Shown piece after piece: positions 8,595 through 17,340 of a stretch of 64,000 nucleotides of DNA (the first letter of the stretch is position 1; the number at the start of each line of letters is the position of its first letter). This DNA comes from a virus. The stretch covers positions 32,001-96,000 of the IMG/VR virus record IMGVR_UViG_3300021478_000015; one strand, written 5' to 3'. A program made the translations under genes and the position numbers. Under the pieces are notes generated by a model that did not search any database, had not been told where the DNA came from, and saw only the letters and a program-made list of their open reading frames with translations.

Positions 8595-9632
8595 TCAGGC
8601 GGCGTCTCCGCTCAGCAGGTTCACCACGTCGTCCCAGCGATCCGAGACGCCCTGCAGCAACTCTGAGGCGGTCTCCTCGGCGGCGATGGCCTCGTCCCAG
8701 GCCTCCTCGTTGCGCTCGCCCTCGACATGCTCGCGGATCAGGGCGGACAGGGTGGCCGGGTCCAGGGCGTCAAGCTCCCAGGACTCGTCGCCGTAGAGGC
8801 CGACGTAGCCCTCGGCGCGGGCGTCGGTCATCTTGGCCGGGTTGGGCGGCGGCTGGTACTCGTTCACCTGATCCATGGTCAGAGCGATGCGGCGGATCTC
8901 CAGGTGGCCGCAGGTGTCCTCGTACTCGTCCAGCCGGGTGCGGGCCACCGTCTTGTAGTCGTCGGCGTCGGGGTCGATCTCGCCGTCGCGGATCCACTTG
9001 CGGAGCATGGTGGTCATGCGGCGGATCATGTCCTTGCGGGTGAACAGGCGCAGCCGGTCCTCGATGTCGCGGCTCATGTCGATGCCGGAGGGGTCATGGT
9101 CGCCCAGGTGCAGGATGAGGACGTTTTGGCCCTTCCACAGGTACTCGTTGAGGCGCTGGGCCGCCCCCCAGATCTCGGACTGGCTGGTGTAGCCCCGGCA
9201 GGAGAAGTACGGCACGTCCAGGTCCGGGCAGACCACGTCCAGCACGCCGACCAGGGCATCCTTCTCGATCCAGACCTCGATGCGGGTGGGCTGACTGGCC
9301 CACTTGTCGGTGCGGAACTGCCGGGCGGCGGCCTTGATCAGGTCGGTGGGCTCGTCCCAGTGGGCCAGGGAGCGCAGGTTGCGGGTCCGGTCCACGATGT
9401 AGTCCCAGTCCAGCATCCCGGCCAGGCGGGCGTCGTTGATGATCGAGCCCAGGCGCTTGTACTCGGTCTGCTTGTTGGCGATCAGGCCCCGGCTGACGAA
9501 CTGGTAGTAAAGCTGCCGCAGGGTCAGGTCGTAGCCCTGGGCGGCGTAGTTGGCGCAGATGGCCTCGGCCTGGCCGATGATCTTCAGCGAGCCGGGCGAG
9601 AACTTCTTGGGGGTGTACTCGATCTTGGCCAT
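8595..9632 (-). CDS. Toprim-domain protein (Topo VI-A/DUF2399/JetD-like)
   Basis: N-terminal TLRQLYY winged helix; EVWIEKDAL, RGY.S, LGDHDPSG, ELDAL. Confidence 0.75.
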   Translation of the reverse strand: MAKIEYTPKKFSPGSLKIIGQAEAICANYAAQGYDLTLRQLYYQFVSRGLIANKQTEYKRLGSIINDARLAGMLDWDYIVDRTRNLRSLAHWDEPTDLIKAAARQFRTDKWASQPTRIEVWIEKDALVGVLDVVCPDLDVPYFSCRGYTSQSEIWGAAQRLNEYLWKGQNVLILHLGDHDPSGIDMSRDIEDRLRLFTRKDMIRRMTTMLRKWIRDGEIDPDADDYKTVARTRLDEYEDTCGHLEIRRIALTMDQVNEYQPPPNPAKMTDARAEGYVGLYGDESWELDALDPATLSALIREHVEGERNEEAWDEAIAAEETASELLQGVSDRWDDVVNLLSGDAA

Positions 9633-9665
9633 CAAATGGCCTCGGTGGTGGTGGTTATGGCGGGC

Positions 9666-9697
9666 ACGTTAGCAAACTTTCCTAGAGAGTGCAAGTC
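9666..9697 (-). promoter_or_regulatory. Repeated phage promoter, copy 1
   Basis: GAC TTGCAC tctctaggaaagtttgc TAACGT. Confidence 0.85.
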
Positions 9698-9774
9698 GGG
9701 GTAGGTCCCCTACCCTTGTTGTCAGGTACAGGCCCCTCAAGTGCATAGATCCTTCGAAGCTCCTGAAAGTTAAG

Positions 9775-9800
9775 GGAGCCCCCTCCGAAGAAGGGGCTCC
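9775..9800 (-). terminator. Hairpin terminator after the ArdC-like gene
   Basis: GGAGCCCC/GGGGCTCC stem followed by CTTAACTTT on minus strand. Confidence 0.65.
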
Positions 9801-9830
9801 AGGTCGTCGGTGGGGATCAGCACGGTGGTC

Positions 9831-10889
9831 TCAAGCAGCCACCTCCACGGGGCGCTCCTTGGCCCCCTCGCCGTCTGACTCGCCGTCCTTGGTCCAGCGG
9901 ATGCCCTGGACCCAGTCGGCGGCGTACTGGGCCTGGGAGGCGGCCTGCATGAGCCACTTGGGCTCGCTCTGCAGCTTGGACAGCCAGCCCTGTAGGTAGG
10001 CGGCCGAGTTGTCGATGGTGGAGTTCTCGATCCCGGCGATCCCGCACAGCATGGCGGCGGTCATCTCCGCGGTTAGCTCCTCCTTGGAGTAGCTGGTGTC
10101 CCCGAAGGAGTGCGACTCCATCAGGTCCTTGCGGGCCAGGCGGCTGGCGTGGCCCGTCGAGTGGCCCATCTCATGGAACAGGGTCGAGTAGTAGGCCTCG
10201 GGGGTGGTGAAGGCGGTGGGCTCGGGCATGCCGATGAAGTCCCGGCTGGGCGAGTAGTAGGCCCGGTTGCCGCCGTGGTGGACCTCGACCTCGGTGTAGC
10301 CGTCCGCCAGGGCCTGAGCCGCCTCGATGGCGTCGAACTCGGGGGCATCCTCGGCGGCCTCGGAGGGCTGGAACTTCTTCGGGAGCGTGCCCTGGTGGAC
10401 CTGATCCTGGTTCCAGACGTTGAACTCCTTGGGGAAGCGGATCCGGACCTTGCGGACCTTGCCGGTGGCCTCGTCCTTCTCCTCCTTGACGAAGCTCCCC
10501 CACCAGATGACCTTGGTGCATTTCTCGCCCTTGCGGACCCCGAAGTCGAGCCCCTCGGGATGGACCCAGGAGTTGCCCTCCTTGACCGCCCCGGCCTGGC
10601 GCGCCCACTCGTCGTAGGTGGCCCAGAAGGTGGACTTGTAGCCCTTCTCCAGGGCCTCGCCCAGGAGCAGCCAGAGGTTGATGCCCCGGTAGAGCTTGCC
10701 GGTGGAGACCGAGCGGGGGAACATGGAGCCGCCGTCCGCGGCCTTCCATTCCTGCAGCCAGATCAGCTTCTTGGTCTGCAGCGACAGGGCGCAGATGCGG
10801 TCAACGACCGACTGGTAGAGGTCCTTGCGGGGCTTGGCGGGGGTGACCCGGCCGGACTTGGTGGACTTGGACTTGGTGGTGGTGGCCAT
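9831..10889 (-). CDS. ardC: ArdC-like anti-restriction protein (ssDNA-binding domain plus zincin metallopeptidase)
   Basis: YRGIN, WATY..W, VRKGEK, F.VWN.DQ, AYYSP..D.I.MP, STLFHEMGHSTGH..RL.R, YSKEELTAE, SAAYLQGW; true start is the leaderless ATG at 10889. Confidence 0.88.
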   Translation of the reverse strand: MATTTKSKSTKSGRVTPAKPRKDLYQSVVDRICALSLQTKKLIWLQEWKAADGGSMFPRSVSTGKLYRGINLWLLLGEALEKGYKSTFWATYDEWARQAGAVKEGNSWVHPEGLDFGVRKGEKCTKVIWWGSFVKEEKDEATGKVRKVRIRFPKEFNVWNQDQVHQGTLPKKFQPSEAAEDAPEFDAIEAAQALADGYTEVEVHHGGNRAYYSPSRDFIGMPEPTAFTTPEAYYSTLFHEMGHSTGHASRLARKDLMESHSFGDTSYSKEELTAEMTAAMLCGIAGIENSTIDNSAAYLQGWLSKLQSEPKWLMQAASQAQYAADWVQGIRWTKDGESDGEGAKERPVEVAA

Positions 10890-10896
10890 GGGAAGT

Positions 10897-10928
10897 ACGT
10901 TAGCAGACTTTCTTAGAGGGCGCAAGTC
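10897..10928 (-). promoter_or_regulatory. Repeated phage promoter, copy 2
   Basis: GAC TTGCGC cctctaagaaagtctgc TAACGT acttccc ATG. Confidence 0.9.
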
Positions 10929-10947
10929 ACCTTTGGCAAGAATGGCA

Positions 10948-10986
10948 AGAAAAGCGAGAGCCCCCGGTTGTAAGTCGGGGGCTCTC
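10948..10986 (-). terminator. Intrinsic terminator
   Basis: Perfect 11-bp stem GAGAGCCCCCG/CGGGGGCTCTC followed by GCTTTTCTT. Confidence 0.85.
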
Positions 10987-11362
10987 ATTCCAGGTTGTGC
11001 TCGGTCCTGCGGTCCTGCCTGACGTGACCCGGAGCTTGGTTGCATCGCAGCTTGGTGGGCCAGGAGGCCCTCCCACTCTCTCCGGCAGGGTTAGCGTCCC
11101 TGCGTACTCTGTGGTTTTGATTGTCAGCGGTCAGTTCCCTGGGCTCAAGCCGTTCGCCCGAGGGCTCCCCGGATTCGACTACGCACGCCCTGGTGACCCG
11201 ACACTTAGCCCCGAGGGGCACTTCAGTGCCGGTGCCACTTCGAGTCGCGGTACCGGGGATGTAAGAGGGATGGGACGGGTGCGGAGGCTGGCCACTGGGC
11301 GGGCCTCCCTTCTGACTGCGGTGCGGGTTACGCCATAGCTTCCTTTCTCGATCGGTGAGTAC
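10948..11362 (-). ncRNA. Candidate ~415-nt structured non-coding RNA of unknown family
   Basis: Bounded by promoter copy 3 and a terminator; no start codon at predicted +1; many hairpins and a 5'/3' closing helix. Confidence 0.65.
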
Positions 11363-11369
11363 AGGAAGC

Positions 11370-11401
11370 ACGTTAGCAAGGATTCCTAGAGAAGTCAAGT
11401 C
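11370..11401 (-). promoter_or_regulatory. Repeated phage promoter, copy 3 (drives candidate ncRNA)
   Basis: GAC TTGACT tctctaggaatccttgc TAACGT gcttcct G. Confidence 0.85.
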
Positions 11402-11579
11402 ACCTGCGGCGGGACTTGGAGTTCTCCCGGCGGGGATTACCGATGTGCCAGCAGGAGCACCAGGCGCACCGGTAGCTCCGGGTGGCCCAGCCTCGCGCCC
11501 GTGCTGCCTTGGCCACGTCGTTGGCTACCTCCCGCGTGGCGTACTGGTGCTTGCCGGTGACGCAGTCGCTGCCCTTCAT
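11400..11579 (-). CDS. Small basic Zn-binding protein
   Basis: C.TGK..Y.T...A...A; YRCAWCSCWHIG. Confidence 0.55.
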   Translation of the reverse strand: MKGSDCVTGKHQYATREVANDVAKAARARGWATRSYRCAWCSCWHIGNPRRENSKSRRR

Positions 11580-11583
11580 GGGC

Positions 11584-11919
11584 TCACGCCTGGTGCAGGA
11601 GGGCCTGCTCCTTGGTGGTGAGCAGCTTCTCGATGTCATGCTCCCAGATGGACTCGCAGACACTGGCCAGGGTGCCGTCCTTTAACCGCCAGCGGACGGT
11701 GTAGGAATACTCCCCGGCCTCCTGGTGGATGTGGACGGTGACGATCTCGGCGTGGCGGGGAGCCCGGCCATGGCGGCCTGGGAGCTTCCTGAAGGCCCGC
11801 ACGGTGTCGCCTTCGTGGTACTTCGAGCCCGCCACCTGAGCGGCGTACAGCGCCTCCTGGGCGGCCTCCAGAGCCTCCTGGCACCGGGTCACCTCAGCGG
11901 CTAGCTCCTTGATGGTCAT
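11584..11919 (-). CDS. Hypothetical protein
   Basis: TGATG-coupled ORF in minus-strand operon. Confidence 0.6.
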   Translation of the reverse strand: MTIKELAAEVTRCQEALEAAQEALYAAQVAGSKYHEGDTVRAFRKLPGRHGRAPRHAEIVTVHIHQEAGEYSYTVRWRLKDGTLASVCESIWEHDIEKLLTTKEQALLHQA

Positions 11920-12503
11920 CAGAAGTACAGGCCTTTCGGGTTCACGTCGGTGACCATGCCCAGCACGTCGATGGGGATCATGGCCCTCAGCTTGGGGGTG
12001 GCGTCCATGGCGGTGAAGATCTCCCTAGCAGGCCAACCGCCGACCGGGGCGTGGGCCAAGACTCTCCAGCCCTCCTGATCGAGCCCTGTGGGGCTCGCCA
12101 AGCGGAGAAAACGGCTCGCCTCACGTCCTGGGTCTACGGCAAGCTCTATGACCTCTGAGACGGGCTCAGGGGGCCGTCCCCACGCCCAGATGGATCCGGA
12201 GCCGTGAGGGACGTGGGGACGGTCGGACGCCCTGGCCATCAGGATGGTAGGGGCGCTGGTGTCGTAGCTCCACAGCGTGGCGTCCACTACCGTCACCTCG
12301 GGGTCGTAGGGGTCGCCCAGGACGGCCCAGGAGTGTTGCGAGCCCACGCCGCGGCAGCCTCCGCGGGCCACTCGGGCTCCCTCGGGCAGCAGACCGGAGC
12401 GGACGATGGCCAGGCTGACCGAGTGGCACTGGTGTGCCCAGTGGTCCTTGGGGATGTCGATGGCAGCCTCGACCGCCTCGACGGTGGGTGCGGTGAAGGT
12501 CAC
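11919..12503 (-). CDS. Possible transglutaminase/papain-like protein
   Basis: Candidate Cys-His-Asp triad: QCHSVS, QHSW, VDAT. Confidence 0.45.
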   Translation of the reverse strand: MTFTAPTVEAVEAAIDIPKDHWAHQCHSVSLAIVRSGLLPEGARVARGGCRGVGSQHSWAVLGDPYDPEVTVVDATLWSYDTSAPTILMARASDRPHVPHGSGSIWAWGRPPEPVSEVIELAVDPGREASRFLRLASPTGLDQEGWRVLAHAPVGGWPAREIFTAMDATPKLRAMIPIDVLGMVTDVNPKGLYF

Positions 12504-12709
12504 TTGTACATCTCCTTATGGCGGGGGCAGTAGTCGAAGCCGTCCACCTTCCAGCCTGCGGCCTTGGCCGCTTTGCGGATGGCGGGCCGGGACTGGATGC
12601 CGTCGTAGGCGAAGGCGGCGGTGCAGGACTTCATGTCCCGCAGGGGATCGCCGCCTGCAGGCAGGTCGGCCCCGTCGCAGGTCACGGTCATTTGCTGGCG
12701 GACGCTCAT
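12500..12709 (-). CDS. Small Zn-binding protein
   Basis: TCD...C...A...GW.....DYCPRH; ATGA-coupled. Confidence 0.6.
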   Translation of the reverse strand: MSVRQQMTVTCDGADLPAGGDPLRDMKSCTAAFAYDGIQSRPAIRKAAKAAGWKVDGFDYCPRHKEMYK

Positions 12710-12945
12710 GGCTTGGCCACCGCATCCCGGCCCGTGTACCAGCCGATGGGACGCTGGTCAGCCCCAGGGTTGGGGCCAGCGTGGAAGTGGTTGGGGGTGT
12801 AGCGATGGTGCTGGTTGGCGTGCCAGCGGCTCATCTCGGTGAAGGTCCAGCTATGGCGCTTGACCGAGGACCGGGCCGCCTGGGTGCCGTGCATCTCTTG
12901 GATGTGATCGAACAGCACCTGCTTGGGGGTGGTGGTCTGTGGCAT
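12706..12945 (-). CDS. His-rich hypothetical protein, leaderless
   Basis: ATG 7 nt after promoter copy 4; starts MPQTTT. Confidence 0.65.
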   Translation of the reverse strand: MPQTTTPKQVLFDHIQEMHGTQAARSSVKRHSWTFTEMSRWHANQHHRYTPNHFHAGPNPGADQRPIGWYTGRDAVAKP

Positions 12946-12952
12946 GGCAAGC

Positions 12953-12984
12953 ACCTTAGCAGGAATCCTTAGAGGGCGCAAGTC
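12953..12984 (-). promoter_or_regulatory. Repeated phage promoter, copy 4
   Basis: GAC TTGCGC cctctaaggattcctgc TAAGGT gcttgcc ATG. Confidence 0.88.
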
Positions 12985-12992
12985 GCCCAGGA

Positions 12993-14279
12993 CTACCAGC
13001 CCCAGGGGGCGATGGGCTCCCAGCCCAGCTTGGCCGTCACCTTGTTGATGGCGTCCTGGATGGCGTGCTGGGTCGCGTCTTCGCGGGCCTCGGGATGGCC
13101 CTGGTCGGCCACCCAGTCAGAGCCCTCACAGACACGGCCTTCGAGGTCAGCCCGCTGGAGCTTCCCGGTGCTGATCTCGCTGAGTATCAGCGTGACCATG
13201 CGGTGGACGGTAACGCCGCCCATGTGAGAGGGCATCTGATAAGGGGGAATCTCGCTCTTGGCCGGGCACTTTGATTTCGGTTGTGTCTTAGTAGTGGTCA
13301 TGGTGGACATCTTATCAAACTTCCTTATAGTAGCGGCGGTAGTTGTGGGGATTTGTGTCTTTGTTGTGAGGAAGGGGTCCAGGAGATCGCGGAAGTCTTC
13401 GTTCGTAGTGAGATCCCATATCGGAAACTTAATATCCTCGTTGTACTTCCGGTATAACCGGGCTGCTTCTAAATAATCAGGATCGCACCACTCACCCTCA
13501 TGCACCAGTCCGGTGATGCGGAAGTCACTATTCTCAAGGTCTGGGTAGTCCATCCAGCCCTTGGCCGGGGTAACGAGATGTCTGGGTGTCCTATGCCGCT
13601 CTTCCGGGCTGGCGGCGTCGTACCAGGCCTGCCATTCAGGTGTCCTTCTAAACCTGGAGTCCCTACTACTAGTATCCTTCCAGATCTTTCGTTGCTGTGC
13701 GTATCGTTGCACCCATCTCTTTATCTCAGTATCAGGCCAATCCTTGATTGCAGCCTGGGTTAACGCAGGTGGTACGTTGATCACATACATCAGCTTTGGT
13801 ATCTTGTGACCGGCTGCATAGTCTCTTGCTATTGCTTCGCTGAACTGAGTATGGGGGACTACTAGTGTCTGATCTGTTATCAGGCTGGATCCGACTCTTA
13901 TATTGGTGGATCCGAGTTCTCCATATCCACCGTAGCAAGGATGAATCAGTATCTTGGCCTTAGGGGGTCCTCCACTCACGTTTCTCACGTATTCAGGCGG
14001 TAGTAGCCTGTGGTGTAAGCGCTTGCTCTTGCCCTCGTCGTAGTTTCTGATCGTGGCTGGCCCATATACTTCAGCTATGCAATGCTCTCCTGTCTGTTGA
14101 GTCATGTCCGTCAACAGAGGATCGACAATGGATGTCACGATTTCCCACCAGGGCCAGCAGTTCGTGTTGGGTATGTACGATCCTGAGCCCTGACTGCCGT
14201 TCAGTAGCTGGCGGGAATCGATCACTGATCCATCGGTCAGGGTCATGGGGCCGCCGATGAGGATTATGGTGATGCTCAT
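12993..14279 (-). CDS. AT-rich paralogue B, fused in frame to a downstream ~102-aa gene (12993..13301)
   Basis: ATG overlaps stop of paralogue A; shares N- and C-terminal blocks with 14276..15067. Confidence 0.65.
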   Translation of the reverse strand: MSITIILIGGPMTLTDGSVIDSRQLLNGSQGSGSYIPNTNCWPWWEIVTSIVDPLLTDMTQQTGEHCIAEVYGPATIRNYDEGKSKRLHHRLLPPEYVRNVSGGPPKAKILIHPCYGGYGELGSTNIRVGSSLITDQTLVVPHTQFSEAIARDYAAGHKIPKLMYVINVPPALTQAAIKDWPDTEIKRWVQRYAQQRKIWKDTSSRDSRFRRTPEWQAWYDAASPEERHRTPRHLVTPAKGWMDYPDLENSDFRITGLVHEGEWCDPDYLEAARLYRKYNEDIKFPIWDLTTNEDFRDLLDPFLTTKTQIPTTTAATIRKFDKMSTMTTTKTQPKSKCPAKSEIPPYQMPSHMGGVTVHRMVTLILSEISTGKLQRADLEGRVCEGSDWVADQGHPEAREDATQHAIQDAINKVTAKLGWEPIAPWGW

Positions 14280-15067: not shown

Positions 15068-16949
15068 GGTATTGATCCTGGTAGGCAAGGAGTCTTTCTC
15101 TAAGTCTTTTGTTGCGTGAAGCTGCCAGAGCAAGAGTCGTAGCATCGACGGTTACTAGCTTGCCACGTTGTCTTTGATCTTCGATGTACAACTCGGCGCA
15201 CTCGATGAGCTTGACGGTGCCATATCCCCCTTGGGTGTCATAGGCGTCTCCTAGCTCAGCCACGGTGCCCAGGGGCTCGAATCGGACTCTCGGCTTAGGA
15301 GCACCCCGGACCTTGACTACCGGGGGATTAGCAGGCTCACCCTCGATCACGGTGAGGGGTGGTAACAGAGGGACCTCTCGTCTTATCCGTTCGGCCATGG
15401 AGATCAGGTCGGGATCGGCGGGCATGTAGATCCGGCCGATGTTGGTCGGGTCGTTGGGATCGATTCGCATCACCCGGCCCACGATCTGGCGGAAAGCCAG
15501 CTTGGTCTTGGTATTGGTCAGGTAGACCACGGCTCGCAGACGGCGGATGTCGATGCCCTCCGAGATCATGTTGACGGCCACCAGCCAGCGCTTGCTGGCA
15601 TGGTGGGCCTTGAACTGGCGGATGACATCGGCGGCATTTTGATCGTCAGGGTTGGTGTCCTTGGACCAGGCCTTCATCGGTTTGATACCGGTGATCTTCT
15701 CTAGGCGCTTGGCGATGCGTTCGGCGTGATCACAGTCGTAACACACCACTAATCCGGCAGCATCAGGATCACCATTGTCGCGGATATCGATCAGCCAATC
15801 ATTGGCTTTGTGTATTAGCTGATCGGTGATGGTCCCATCCCCGATGCAATCCAGGGCGGTAAGCAGACGGCGTTTCTTTCCGAGTGTGCTTACATCCGGG
15901 TCGTTAAAGTCGAGGGTGTGCTCGGTGCCGTCCTCGTTGCGGAAGGTGGTCGATCCCTGGGTAGTGAGGAACTGCACCCGGCGGCAGGCCGGAGGTTTGT
16001 CCCGAAGAGCATGGCCATAGGTGTAGCGATAGAGCGGTTTGGCAGCACCTCCGGTATGGGGCACGAAGGCAATCTTCTTGGCGTCGGTACGGAACGGGGT
16101 CCCTGACATCGACAGGATGCACCGGGCTCCCTGGGCGAAGGCGGTCTGGGCGGCCAGGCCCCAGGTCTTGTCGGTGGCGACGTGGTGGACCTCATCGAAG
16201 ATGACCAGGGTGTTGTGGTGAACGTTGGTGGTCGTCCGGCCCTTTTTCTCGATACTGATGTCAGTGGCGTGGGCCAGGAAGGTGTCAGTCATTCTGGCCA
16301 GGGATTGGTAGCTGAGGACCGCTCCCACAGCGTTGTCTGGGATGGCCCTGGTGGGCCTCCAGATCGCCCCTCTGGTGCTAACCAGGGGCAGGGTGGGGTT
16401 GTCGGGCTCTCGCTTGCTGGCGGCTAGCAGCCAGCCGTCTGCGATGCCGATGGTGTGAACCACCACCAACACCCGCGAGATCTCCCCAGCCTTGATCAGA
16501 TGGTGGGCTACCTCCAGGGCCAGGCGGGTCTTGCCTGCACCGGGGCAGGCCTCGATCAGTACCGGGTCGTTCAGGATACGGGGTAGGATCTTGTCCAGAG
16601 CCTGCTCCTGCCAGTGCCGGAGCCTGTCGTCCCCGGCTGCCAGCAGGTCCAGGTTGAACTGCTTGGCCAGGGTCTCGTAGGTCTGGTTGCCCTTGCGGGC
16701 GTTGCAATGACGGCACAGGGCCATGAGGTTGGAGTAGACGGTGCGGCCACCCTTGCTCCAGGGGAAGACGTGGTCGCCGTCGAAGAGGTCACGGGGAAGC
16801 TCGCGCTGGCAGGGCGGGCACTTCCTGCCTTGGGCCTCCCACTTGCGGATCACCTCGGCGCGGCTGAACCTCCGGTGAGGATCCCGTTGATCCAGGGGTA
16901 CGTCAGGGATCTTGGGCTCGCCCAGCAGGACGGCTCCGGTGAGGTTCAT
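15054..16949 (-). CDS. HNH endonuclease fused to SF2 (DEAD/ResIII-like) helicase
   Basis: CPPC..DHVFPWSKGG.T..SNL..LCRHCN..KG; LRHWQ, PGAGKT, FDEVHH, SGTPFR, SEGIDI, QIVGRVMR. Confidence 0.88.
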   Translation of the reverse strand: MNLTGAVLLGEPKIPDVPLDQRDPHRRFSRAEVIRKWEAQGRKCPPCQRELPRDLFDGDHVFPWSKGGRTVYSNLMALCRHCNARKGNQTYETLAKQFNLDLLAAGDDRLRHWQEQALDKILPRILNDPVLIEACPGAGKTRLALEVAHHLIKAGEISRVLVVVHTIGIADGWLLAASKREPDNPTLPLVSTRGAIWRPTRAIPDNAVGAVLSYQSLARMTDTFLAHATDISIEKKGRTTTNVHHNTLVIFDEVHHVATDKTWGLAAQTAFAQGARCILSMSGTPFRTDAKKIAFVPHTGGAAKPLYRYTYGHALRDKPPACRRVQFLTTQGSTTFRNEDGTEHTLDFNDPDVSTLGKKRRLLTALDCIGDGTITDQLIHKANDWLIDIRDNGDPDAAGLVVCYDCDHAERIAKRLEKITGIKPMKAWSKDTNPDDQNAADVIRQFKAHHASKRWLVAVNMISEGIDIRRLRAVVYLTNTKTKLAFRQIVGRVMRIDPNDPTNIGRIYMPADPDLISMAERIRREVPLLPPLTVIEGEPANPPVVKVRGAPKPRVRFEPLGTVAELGDAYDTQGGYGTVKLIECAELYIEDQRQRGKLVTVDATTLALAASRNKRLRERLLAYQDQYHVAS

Positions 16950-17088
16950 GACTCCACCTGGACCCGGCCCCGGCAGGCGCGCTTAGCGGCCACCTTCTTC
17001 TTGGACTGGACGGTCTTGGCCCGCAGGGGGACGTGGGGGTTCATGACCCGCGCCCCAGGGCGGGCGGAGGTGCGTCTGGGCTTGGCCA

Positions 17089-17340
17089 TCAGACCTCCAC
17101 CTCCACGGTGACCTTGCCACCCTCGATGGCGACCAGCTTGGCCCCCAACCGGCGCACACGGGCCAACACGGCCCCGGAGGAGGAGTGGGCGTAGCCCACG
17201 ATCTCAGCCCCGGTGAAGGTCTTCTCGAAGCCCACGCCCCGGCCGTTCCGGACGATCATCTCGCCCTTGGCGTAGTGGGCCTTGACCAAAGCGAACTTGG
17301 CCCCGGAGCGGGTCTTGATGGTGACGGTGGTGGTGGTCAT
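17089..17340 (-). CDS. Small basic protein, leaderless
   Basis: ATG 7 nt after promoter copy 5; starts MTTTT. Confidence 0.65.
   Translation of the reverse strand: MTTTTVTIKTRSGAKFALVKAHYAKGEMIVRNGRGVGFEKTFTGAEIVGYAHSSSGAVLARVRRLGAKLVAIEGGKVTVEVEV

What the first reader, a model, noticed from the sequence alone, without database searches (positions are those of the whole stretch)
10948..11401. Candidate ~415-nt structured phage ncRNA with its own promoter and terminator
Seen: promoter copy 3 (TTGACT-17-TAACGT) is the only one of 12 copies not followed by ATG/ATA and Thr-rich codons; predicted +1 is G11362. The unit ends at a perfect 11-bp hairpin plus U-tract (10948-10986), just before the ardC promoter. 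Minus-strand hairpins include GGAGGC..GCCTCC, CCGGTACC..GGCACCGG, GGCAC-TGAA-GTGCC, GCCC-CTCG-GGGC, CTCGGGC..GCTTGAG, GCAGGG-ACGCTAA-CCCTGC and GGGCC-TCCT-GGCCC. Long-range pairings are possible: GGCGTAACCCG (11324-34) with CGGGTCACGTC (11021-31), and TCCCA (11271-75) with TGGGA (11071-75). The only start near the 5' end is a minigene, GAAAGGAAG-CT-ATG-GCG-TAA. Inference: a multi-domain RNA co-regulated with early anti-defence genes, perhaps a decoy, scaffold or ribozyme. I do not recognise its family.
Basis: partly seen in the sequence, partly recalled or inferred. Interest (0 to 1): 0.85.

Follow-up and report, generated by a model that had tools for sequence, protein, structure and literature searches.

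The report
Conserved early noncoding RNA of actinophage
A 157-kb uncultured soil phage of actinobacteria carries a promoter-to-terminator unit that makes a roughly 415-base RNA with no protein-coding capacity; part of it is kept almost unchanged in related phages and turns up in soil RNA libraries, but its job is unknown and its supposed elaborate fold is not demonstrated.

Summary
The unit is real. One copy of the phage's 12-copy early promoter (TTGACT-17-TAACGT) is the only copy with no start codon after it. About 415 nt downstream lies an 11-bp hairpin with a U-tract. The stretch between them is non-coding: it has no codon-position GC bias, the 137-aa ORF is broken in a close relative, and indels are not multiples of three. 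No Rfam family, tRNA or tmRNA matches. Five distinct homologues exist, all in uncultured soil phages. They show a modular RNA with two islands under purifying selection: block 1 (11337-11255) and a central core (11138-11026). The core is 88-94% identical where 4-fold synonymous sites are 67-85% identical. A fast-evolving linker separates the islands. In the more distant relatives, the core and terminator sit behind different protein genes as a 3' tail; here they have their own promoter. RNA contigs from three soil metatranscriptomes match 10990-11289 exactly. The "highly structured" claim is not supported. Without the terminator the folding z-score is about -0.8, like coding controls, and only one compensatory pair occurs in the core. 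Best reading: a new, accessory, trans-acting early phage RNA, probably binding a partner. Function is unproven.

The parts
11363..11401 (-). Early promoter copy: -35 TTGACT at 11398-11393, 17-nt spacer containing the family motif CTCTAGGAATCCTTGC, -10 TAACGT at 11375-11370, and a 7-nt spacer to the inferred +1.
   Evidence: Exact pattern match. Motif family has 11 copies in the window against 0.12 expected and 12 in the genome, all others followed by a leaderless start. Conserved in L058.
11338..11362 (-). 5' leader of the RNA; inferred +1 is G11362. Poorly conserved (61% identity to L058, with a 6-nt indel). Holds the SD-like GAAAGGAAG.
   Evidence: The SD-like run is degraded to GAAAGAACC in L058.
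11255..11337 (-). Conserved island 'block 1' of the 5' domain. It includes the minigene ATG-GCG-TAA (11336-11328), the hairpin GGGAGGC...GCCUCC and a C-rich tract CCCAUCCCUCUU. Found only in the window and L058.
   Evidence: 94.1% identity to L058 (80/85), against 77-85% at 4-fold synonymous sites. Indels of 1 and 2 nt. No similarity to the 46-aa ORF that precedes the core in relatives.
11183..11254 (-). Hypervariable linker.
   Evidence: Only 56.9% identity to L058, with indels.
10987..11182 (-). Conserved core module, shared by all five distinct homologues. The 5' flank (11182-11139) and 3' flank (11025-10987) are moderately conserved.
   Evidence: nhmmer E-values 1e-77 to 1e-81 against L058, L004, L005/L067 and L068. 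Alignments. Indels of 1 and 2 nt between lineages.
11026..11138 (-). Near-invariant central block of the core. Predicted three-way junction: closing helix ACCACAGAGU/GCUCCGGGU; hairpin GCAGGG-loop-CCCUGC; extended hairpin CGGAG...UGG-GGGCC-loop-GGCCC-CCA...CUGCG. Invariant single strands include CAAAACCAC and GGAGAGAGUGGGA.
   Evidence: 87.6% identity to L004/L005 and 93.8% to L058, against 67-78% and 77-85% at 4-fold sites. All 26 predicted pairs are kept in every sequence and 25 never vary. One compensatory C-G to U-A change. The hairpin loops vary.
10948..10986 (-). Intrinsic terminator: 11-bp perfect GC-rich stem, 9-nt loop, then GCUUUUCUU.
   Evidence: The hairpin is kept in all homologues, with six pairs changed on both sides.
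10990..11289 (.). Span covered by exactly matching contigs from three soil metatranscriptome runs: 10990-11248, 10999-11179 and 11139-11289.
   Evidence: Contigs give no strand, no ends and no abundance.

Best explanation
This is a genuine RNA gene of an uncultured, probably lytic, soil actinophage. An early promoter starts a non-translated transcript of about 415 nt, probably at G11362, and an intrinsic terminator ends it at about 10950.

The RNA is modular. It has a lineage-specific 5' domain with one conserved island. It also has a core of about 195 nt whose central 113 nt are almost invariant. The core plus terminator is a portable 3' cassette. In more distant relatives it rides behind a 46-aa or a 110-aa leaderless gene. 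In this phage and one close relative it has its own promoter and no ORF.

The core stays under purifying selection even where nothing is translated upstream. The next gene has its own promoter, and its start codon has no Shine-Dalgarno sequence in front of it. I therefore infer that the RNA acts in trans, as a compact folded RNA that binds a conserved partner early in infection. That partner is most likely a host protein or complex, which would make the RNA a sponge, decoy or scaffold. A seed-type antisense RNA or a cis regulator is less likely.

Shown: the non-coding nature, promoter, terminator, modular conservation, selection, and presence in RNA libraries. Inferred: the transcript ends, the fold, trans action and the partner.
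For: Non-coding:
- GC3 is flat (0.55-0.75) across 11400-10950, against 0.88-1.00 in the flanking genes.
- The 137-aa ORF is split into two frames in L058.
- Indels are 1, 2 and 6 nt.

Transcription unit:
- The promoter family is highly non-random, and this is the only copy without a start codon.
- The terminator is conserved through compensatory changes.

Selection:
- The central block is 99/113 identical to the L004-type sequences, where 4-fold sites are 67-78% identical.
- It is 106/113 identical to L058, where 4-fold sites are 77-85% identical.
- The linker is only 57% identical.

Modularity:
- The core follows different upstream content in L004/L005/L067, in L068, and in the window/L058.
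- The cassette is absent between the same flanking genes in L055.

Expression:
- Exact RNA-library contigs from three runs cover 10990-11289. In two of those runs nothing else in 9000-13500 matches exactly.

Against cis control of the next gene:
- In the window the downstream gene has its own promoter, and its ATG is 7 nt after the -10 hexamer with no Shine-Dalgarno sequence in front. The aligned relatives show the same promoter-then-ATG layout after the terminator.

Precedent:
- Cluster A mycobacteriophages make abundant, stable, host-toxic non-coding RNAs from their early promoter (PMC5712189).
Against: - Predicted folding stability is ordinary once the terminator is removed: z is -0.8 to +0.6, like coding controls.
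- Covariation in the core is one pair, and the long outer helix is only 80% paired. The fold is therefore unproven.
- Only five distinct sequences from two lineages are available.
- RNA-library contigs cannot show strand, ends or abundance, and they could stem from DNA carry-over. The runs were also chosen because they hold this stretch.
- No partner protein co-occurs with the element in the loci available.
- Host genomes could not be searched.
Confidence: 0.5

Rival explanations
1. The core is a cis-acting 3'-end module. Together with the terminator it would stabilise early transcripts, or tune their termination or translation. The window's ORF-less version would then be a relic in which the upstream gene was lost.
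For: In three of the five distinct homologues the core is the 3'UTR of a leaderless protein gene. It always abuts the terminator. The motif GAGCCC recurs in the core and in the terminator arm, so alternative pairings are conceivable. The sequence after the promoter (GTACTCACC) resembles a mutated ATGACCACC start.
Against: The window and L058 have no ORF to act on, yet they keep the core at 93.8% identity and a second island at 94%, above the synonymous-site level. The 5' domain shows no similarity to the 46-aa gene. A 113-nt near-invariant block is far more than 3'-end protection needs. Read-through would place a start codon with no Shine-Dalgarno sequence in front of it inside a longer transcript.
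Confidence: 0.2
2. It is a base-pairing regulatory RNA of the 3'UTR-derived sRNA type. A conserved single strand such as AAUCAAAACCAC or GGAGAGAGUGGGAGGG would serve as the seed and target host mRNAs.
For: The layout (3' end of an mRNA, shared terminator, own promoter in some genomes) is that of 3'UTR-derived sRNAs, going by established knowledge of enterobacterial examples. A/C-rich and purine-rich invariant stretches are predicted to be unpaired.
Against: Conservation covers helices and junctions over 113 nt, not just a short seed. There is no complementarity beyond chance anywhere in the phage genome: thirteen matches of 12 nt or longer against about 8-10 expected. Host targets could not be tested because the host is unknown.
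Confidence: 0.12
3. The conserved block works as DNA, for example as a protein-binding site, an origin-like element or another cis site, and its transcription is incidental.
For: The invariant stems CAGGG/CCCTG and GGGCC/GGCCC are also inverted repeats in DNA. Most predicted pairs never vary, so RNA structure is not proven.
Against: The element is packaged between a promoter and a terminator and is found in RNA libraries. It is accessory: it is absent within 10 kb of ArdC in several relatives, which is unlike an origin. It has no iterons and no AT-rich segment. There is no integrase or resolvase for an attP role. One stem shows a compensatory change, which keeps pairing rather than base identity.
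Confidence: 0.08
4. It is a functionless remnant. A decayed early gene would have left the sequence behind, and a recent transfer between phage lineages would explain its similarity instead of selection.
For: The element lies at different places in different genomes and is missing from many relatives. The sample is small.
Against: Similarity is strongly uneven. Identity between lineages is 88% in the centre but 64-68% in the flanks, and between close relatives it is 94% against 57%. A recent transfer would give even similarity. The terminator hairpin is maintained by compensatory changes.
Confidence: 0.07
5. It encodes a protein or peptide: the 137-aa ORF at 10985-11398, the antisense 113-aa ORF, or the GUG-started 49-aa ORF.
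For: Open frames exist in the window on both strands. A short stretch of the antisense frame and of the GUG frame stays open in all homologues, because the DNA there hardly varies.
Against: No frame shows the genome's GC3 bias. The 137-aa ORF is broken in L058. Indels of 1 and 2 nt shift every frame between lineages. In the central block, variable sites are spread over all three codon phases (9/5/4).
Confidence: 0.03

Closest known systems
[quoted passage not shown]
   Same: The host group is actinobacterial. A non-coding region of several hundred nt is transcribed from the early promoter. There is no conserved ORF and small indels are frequent. The function is unknown, and the RNAs are thought to act on the host (they are toxic to M. 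smegmatis).
   Different: There is no sequence similarity to any cultured phage record. The Pleft RNAs lie at the genome end and head the early operon, whereas this element is an internal, accessory cassette that ends at its own terminator. Here abundance, stability and toxicity are untested.
GOLLD, ROOL and OLE large ornate RNAs of bacteria and phages (Rfam; PMC12286853)
   Same: They are long non-coding RNAs. GOLLD and ROOL are often phage- or prophage-borne, were found by comparative genomics, and have no known function.
   Different: There is no Rfam match even at E <= 10. This RNA is smaller. It lacks the rich covariation and the folding signal that define those families.
3'UTR-derived small RNAs of bacteria (established knowledge; enterobacterial examples such as CpxQ or SroC)
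   Same: In three of the five distinct homologues the conserved RNA is the 3' end of a protein-coding transcript and shares its terminator. In the other two it has its own promoter. Both arrangements are known for this class.
   Different: The conserved part is about 195 nt, with helices and junctions invariant, and no short seed stands out. Actinobacteria lack Hfq. No target was found.
phi29 packaging RNA (pRNA, Rfam RF00044)
   Same: It is a phage RNA made from an early promoter that works as a folded RNA bound to protein and not as a message.
   Different: There is no Rfam match. This element is missing from close relatives, so it cannot be an essential part of the virion assembly machinery.

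Membership tests
Any curated RNA family (Rfam 15) | Covariance-model score at or near the family's gathering threshold | tested here: not met
   The best hits scored 13-20 bits against thresholds of 30-106 bits, with E-values of 1.4-7, and were biologically irrelevant (miRNAs, lncRNA pieces, a terminator look-alike). The gathering scan of the whole window found nothing.
tRNA / tmRNA (including vestigial tRNA arrays) | Cloverleaf with T-loop and acceptor stem; for tmRNA also a tag reading frame | tested here: not met
   ARAGORN found none in the window, in the whole 157-kb genome or in any homologue. At 80% of its thresholds it draws a 'tRNA-Gly' with mismatched acceptor stems and no T-loop motif. 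No tRNA genes occur in the related loci.
Protein-coding gene | Codon-position GC bias typical of the genome, and a frame conserved among homologues | tested here: not met
   GC3 is 0.55-0.75 in all phases, against 0.88-1.00 in neighbouring genes. The ORF is broken in L058. Indels are not multiples of three.
Intrinsic (Rho-independent) terminator | GC-rich hairpin followed by a U-tract, kept in homologues | tested here: met
   11-bp stem, 9-nt loop, then GCUUUUCUU. The hairpin is kept in all six loci, with six pairs changed on both sides.
Actinobacterial housekeeping-type promoter driving leaderless transcripts | -35 TTGAC-like and -10 TANNNT hexamers with about 17-nt spacing, recurring before gene starts | tested here: met
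   TTGACT-17-TAACGT. There are 12 copies in the genome, and 11 of them have ATG or ATA 7-10 nt (mostly 7) after the -10 hexamer. The E. coli-consensus scanner does not call it.
Ro60/Y-RNA or retron/DGR RNA components | A partner gene (TROVE protein, or a reverse transcriptase) in the same genome | tested here: not met
   No TROVE and no RVT_1 match in the complete phage genome.
Phage attachment site (attP) | An integrase or recombinase gene in the genome | tested here: not met
   No tyrosine integrase or serine resolvase match.
Riboswitch or attenuator controlling the downstream gene | Aptamer plus terminator in the leader of the regulated gene, with read-through giving a translatable message | tested here: not met
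   In the window a full promoter follows the terminator and the ATG lies 7 nt after its -10 hexamer, with no Shine-Dalgarno sequence in front. The aligned relatives show the same layout after the terminator. The neighbouring gene differs between genomes.
Structured RNA in general (conserved secondary structure) | Folding energy below shuffled controls and/or compensatory base changes | tested here: inconclusive
   z is -0.8 without the terminator. In the central junction all 26 predicted pairs are kept in every sequence: 25 never vary and one changes on both sides. Too few sequences are available to decide.

The most novel reading that the evidence does not exclude
The near-invariant 113-nt core is a compact tertiary-folded RNA of an undescribed class: an aptamer-like or RNP-forming effector. 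Actinophages would deploy it in the first minutes of infection to capture a host protein or metabolite, for host take-over or counter-defence. It would be built as a swappable 3' cassette that can be hung on any early transcript.
Probability: 0.2. Interest if true: 0.75.

Novelty: new variant of a known kind. Interest (0 to 1): 0.48.

Why it matters
Early, abundant non-coding RNAs of actinobacterial phages are known, but none has an assigned mechanism. This element adds a second, unrelated example and brings useful handles for experiments:
- a short, sharply bounded conserved core;
- natural versions with and without an upstream gene;
- natural genomes that lack it;
- a trace in environmental RNA.

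If the core binds a host factor, it would be an RNA counterpart of the small early proteins that phages use to seize or disarm the cell. For genome annotation, it shows that long "gaps" in high-GC phage genomes can be picked out as RNA genes by the loss of codon-position GC bias.

Tried and rejected
- **Wasted scans.** My single metagenome contigs and genome-contig scans used the pattern CAAAACCAC-N(20-40)-GGAGAGAGTGGGA. All 12 hits were the reverse complement of tRNA 3' ends placed after a terminator, not homologues. These collections therefore remain effectively unsearched.
- **Viral contigs patterns.** Four exact-pattern scans found only the two IMG/VR relatives plus one chance hit, L064. 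The 5'-domain pattern found nothing.
- **Cultured phages.** blastn in distant mode found no match.
- **Larger relative records.** Whole-record searches of the larger ArdC-related IMG/VR records found no extra copies. The assemblies behind L055-L058 could not be searched whole.
- **Relatives without the element.** There was no match within about 10 kb of ArdC in L055-L057, L059-L063 and L066. The last look-up returned no DNA.
- **tRNA-like reading.** Rejected.
- **5' domain as a decayed 46-aa gene.** Rejected: alignment scores equal those of shuffles.
- **Antisense targets in the phage genome.** None beyond chance.
- **Co-occurring partner protein.** None has the element's presence/absence pattern.
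- **Pfam.** Nothing for the 46/47-aa basic protein or for the 59-aa upstream protein.
- **RNA-library cover outside the element.** X5 and X7 gave no exact contig elsewhere in 9000-13500. X8 gave two others, at 12213-12482 and 12725-12875. Uncovered parts prove nothing, because these are contigs and the runs were selected with this stretch.
- **Literature.** Word searches gave no description of this element.

Full report
**What is there.** The window is bases 32001-96000 of a 156,983-bp IMG/VR phage record that CheckV rates complete. The genome is 62% G+C and has no tRNA genes. It encodes WhiB, ArdC, a class II ribonucleotide reductase and a dCTP deaminase/dUTPase, so the host is an actinobacterium. 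No integrase or resolvase is present.

On the minus strand, TTGACT-17-TAACGT lies at 11398-11370. It is one copy of a promoter family (CTCTARG-N-A-N4-TGCTAAnGT preceded by GACTTG). The family has 11 copies in the window against 0.12 expected by chance, and 12 copies in the genome. In the other eleven copies an ATG (once ATA) followed by ACC-rich codons begins 7-10 nt (mostly 7) after the -10 hexamer. Those are leaderless genes. Only this copy has no start there (GTACTCACC), which puts the likely +1 at G11362. The unit ends at an 11-bp perfect hairpin with a 9-nt loop and GCUUUUCUU (10986-10948). The ArdC promoter begins directly after it.

**It is not coding.** Genes of this phage have 88-100% G+C at third codon positions. 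Between 11400 and 10950 all three phases sit at 0.55-0.75, on either strand. Homologues differ by indels of 1, 2 and 6 nt. Variable sites in the best-conserved part are spread over all codon phases.

**It matches nothing known.**
- Rfam 15 gave no hit better than E = 1.4, on the window or on a homologue, and nothing at gathering level in the whole window.
- ARAGORN found no tRNA or tmRNA. The cloverleaf it draws at 80% of its thresholds is poor.
- No reverse transcriptase or TROVE protein is encoded.
- There is no similarity to any cultured phage record.

**Homologues and anatomy.** Six loci, five of them distinct, carry the element. All come from uncultured soil phages of the same ~155-kb group.
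- L058 (ArdC 89% identical) has the full unit, with promoter, no ATG and terminator.
- L004, L005 (identical to L067 in the core region) and L068 (ArdC 57-58% identical) have only the 3' part, about 240 nt.
- In L004, L005 and L067 the promoter drives a leaderless 46-aa basic protein gene. Its coding nature shows in third-position changes and a 3-nt indel. The core follows 55 nt after its stop.
- In L068 a 110-aa gene is joined to the last codons of that small gene, and the core follows.
- The window's own copy of the small gene lies elsewhere, at 16946-17089, coupled to an HNH-helicase gene.
- The window's 5' domain is not a decayed copy of that gene.

So the core plus terminator is a portable 3' cassette, and the window and L058 give it its own promoter and a non-coding 5' domain. 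The cassette is accessory. L055 (ArdC 87% identical) has the same flanking genes with only 80 nt between them. Eight other related loci lack the cassette within the DNA available.

**Selection.** I used identity at 4-fold synonymous sites of ArdC and the reductase as a neutral yardstick and compared it with segment identities.

| Comparison | 4-fold sites | Central block (11138-11026) | Block 1 (11337-11255) | Other segments |
|---|---|---|---|---|
| Window vs L004 type | 67-78% | 87.6% (99/113) | absent | flanks 64-68% |
| Window vs L058 | 77-85% | 93.8% (106/113) | 94.1% (80/85) | linker 56.9% |

The central block is thus about four standard deviations above the reductase value. This uneven pattern argues for purifying selection on two islands. 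It argues against a recent transfer or a dead remnant.

**Expression.** The k-mer index found the stretch in twelve soil runs, three of them metatranscriptomes. Their contigs match exactly at 10990-11248, 10999-11179 and 11139-11289. In two of these runs nothing else in 9000-13500 matches exactly. The third run also holds two other exact pieces from early genes. Two of the contigs stop just before the terminator stem. This is compatible with a relatively abundant RNA. However, contigs carry no strand, ends or level, DNA carry-over is possible, and the runs were selected with this stretch. I count it as moderate support.

| Segment folded | z-score |
|---|---|
| Full length | -3.0 / -2.5 |
| Full length without terminator | -0.78 |
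| 5' domain alone | -0.45 |
| Core alone | +0.64 |
| L058 homologue without terminator | +0.46 |
| Coding controls of equal length | -0.7 to +1.9 |

The consensus fold of the core is a three-way junction. Its 26 pairs are kept in every sequence, but 25 of them never vary. One pair changes on both sides (GGGCC/GGCCC to GGGCU/AGCCC), and both hairpin loops vary. The outer long-range helix is only 80% paired. The clear covariation lies in the terminator. The proposed 5'-3' pairings exist in the window and are largely kept in L058, but the L004-type RNAs lack the 5' partner altogether. The fold is therefore neither shown nor refuted. What stands out is near-invariance of the primary sequence.

**Mechanism.** Read-through into the next gene would be unproductive. 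In the window that gene has its own promoter, and its start codon has no Shine-Dalgarno sequence in front; the aligned relatives show the same layout. A riboswitch or attenuator role is therefore unlikely. A purely cis role for an upstream ORF cannot explain why the ORF-less versions keep the core and a second island under selection. No antisense target exists in the phage genome, and conservation is much broader than a seed.

I therefore favour a trans-acting folded RNA that binds a conserved partner early in infection. The partner is probably host-encoded, because no phage protein shares the element's distribution in the loci available. The nearest precedent is the abundant, stable, host-toxic non-coding RNA made from the early promoter of Cluster A mycobacteriophages, whose mechanism is also unknown (PMC5712189). 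The association with anti-defence genes is only adjacency to ArdC in this one genome.

**Limits.**
- Only five distinct sequences from two lineages are available.
- Host genomes could not be searched.
- Raw reads were not available.

**Verdict.** This is a real, conserved, probably expressed non-coding RNA gene of a new family. It has a modular build and an unknown function. The claim of an elaborate multi-domain fold is unproven.

Noticed in passing
window 16946-17089 (-), and L004 501-644, L005, L066 1836-1973: A conserved 45-47-aa, very basic protein (MAKPRRTSARPG...KRACRGRV...) with no Pfam match. In the window its stop overlaps the start of the HNH-helicase gene (ATGA). In the L004-type relatives (L004, L005) it is instead a leaderless gene placed directly in front of the RNA core. 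One JGI record names a homologue 'ribosomal protein L17', which looks unreliable.
   Followed up: partly
window 9635-9687 (-): After the promoter copy at 9666-9687, the usual start position holds ATA-ACC-ACC-ACC-ACC-GAG-GCC-ATT-TGA. This is an 8-codon frame whose stop overlaps the ATG of the WHD-TOPRIM (Topo VI-A-like) gene (TGATG). It may be a leaderless mini-ORF coupled to the gene.
   Followed up: no
whole genome (G000), 12 sites listed: All early genes driven by the 12-copy promoter start with Met/Ala followed by Thr-rich ACC repeats (ATGACCACCACC...). The conserved DNA therefore extends past the promoter into the first codons. This may be part of an operator or of a signal for leaderless translation.
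   Followed up: no
window 10874, 10932, 10938: The best DNA-run contig of the same phage population differs from the window by small deletions of 3, 5 and 5 nt. They lie in the ArdC promoter region and in the first ArdC codons (Thr/Lys/Ser repeat). No difference was listed inside the RNA core.
   Followed up: no
whole genome (G000) and loci L055-L057: A group of ~155-158-kb uncultured soil actinophages has WhiB, a class II ribonucleotide reductase and a dCTP deaminase/dUTPase. There are no tRNA genes in G000 or in the loci examined, and no close cultured relative: the best ArdC match in cultured phages is 37% identical, in Caulobacter phages.
   Followed up: partly
L068 3540-3565: A recombination scar. 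The last eight or so codons and the stop of the 46-aa gene survive directly after the stop of an unrelated 110-aa gene. This shows how the RNA cassette was re-attached to a new upstream gene.
   Followed up: yes
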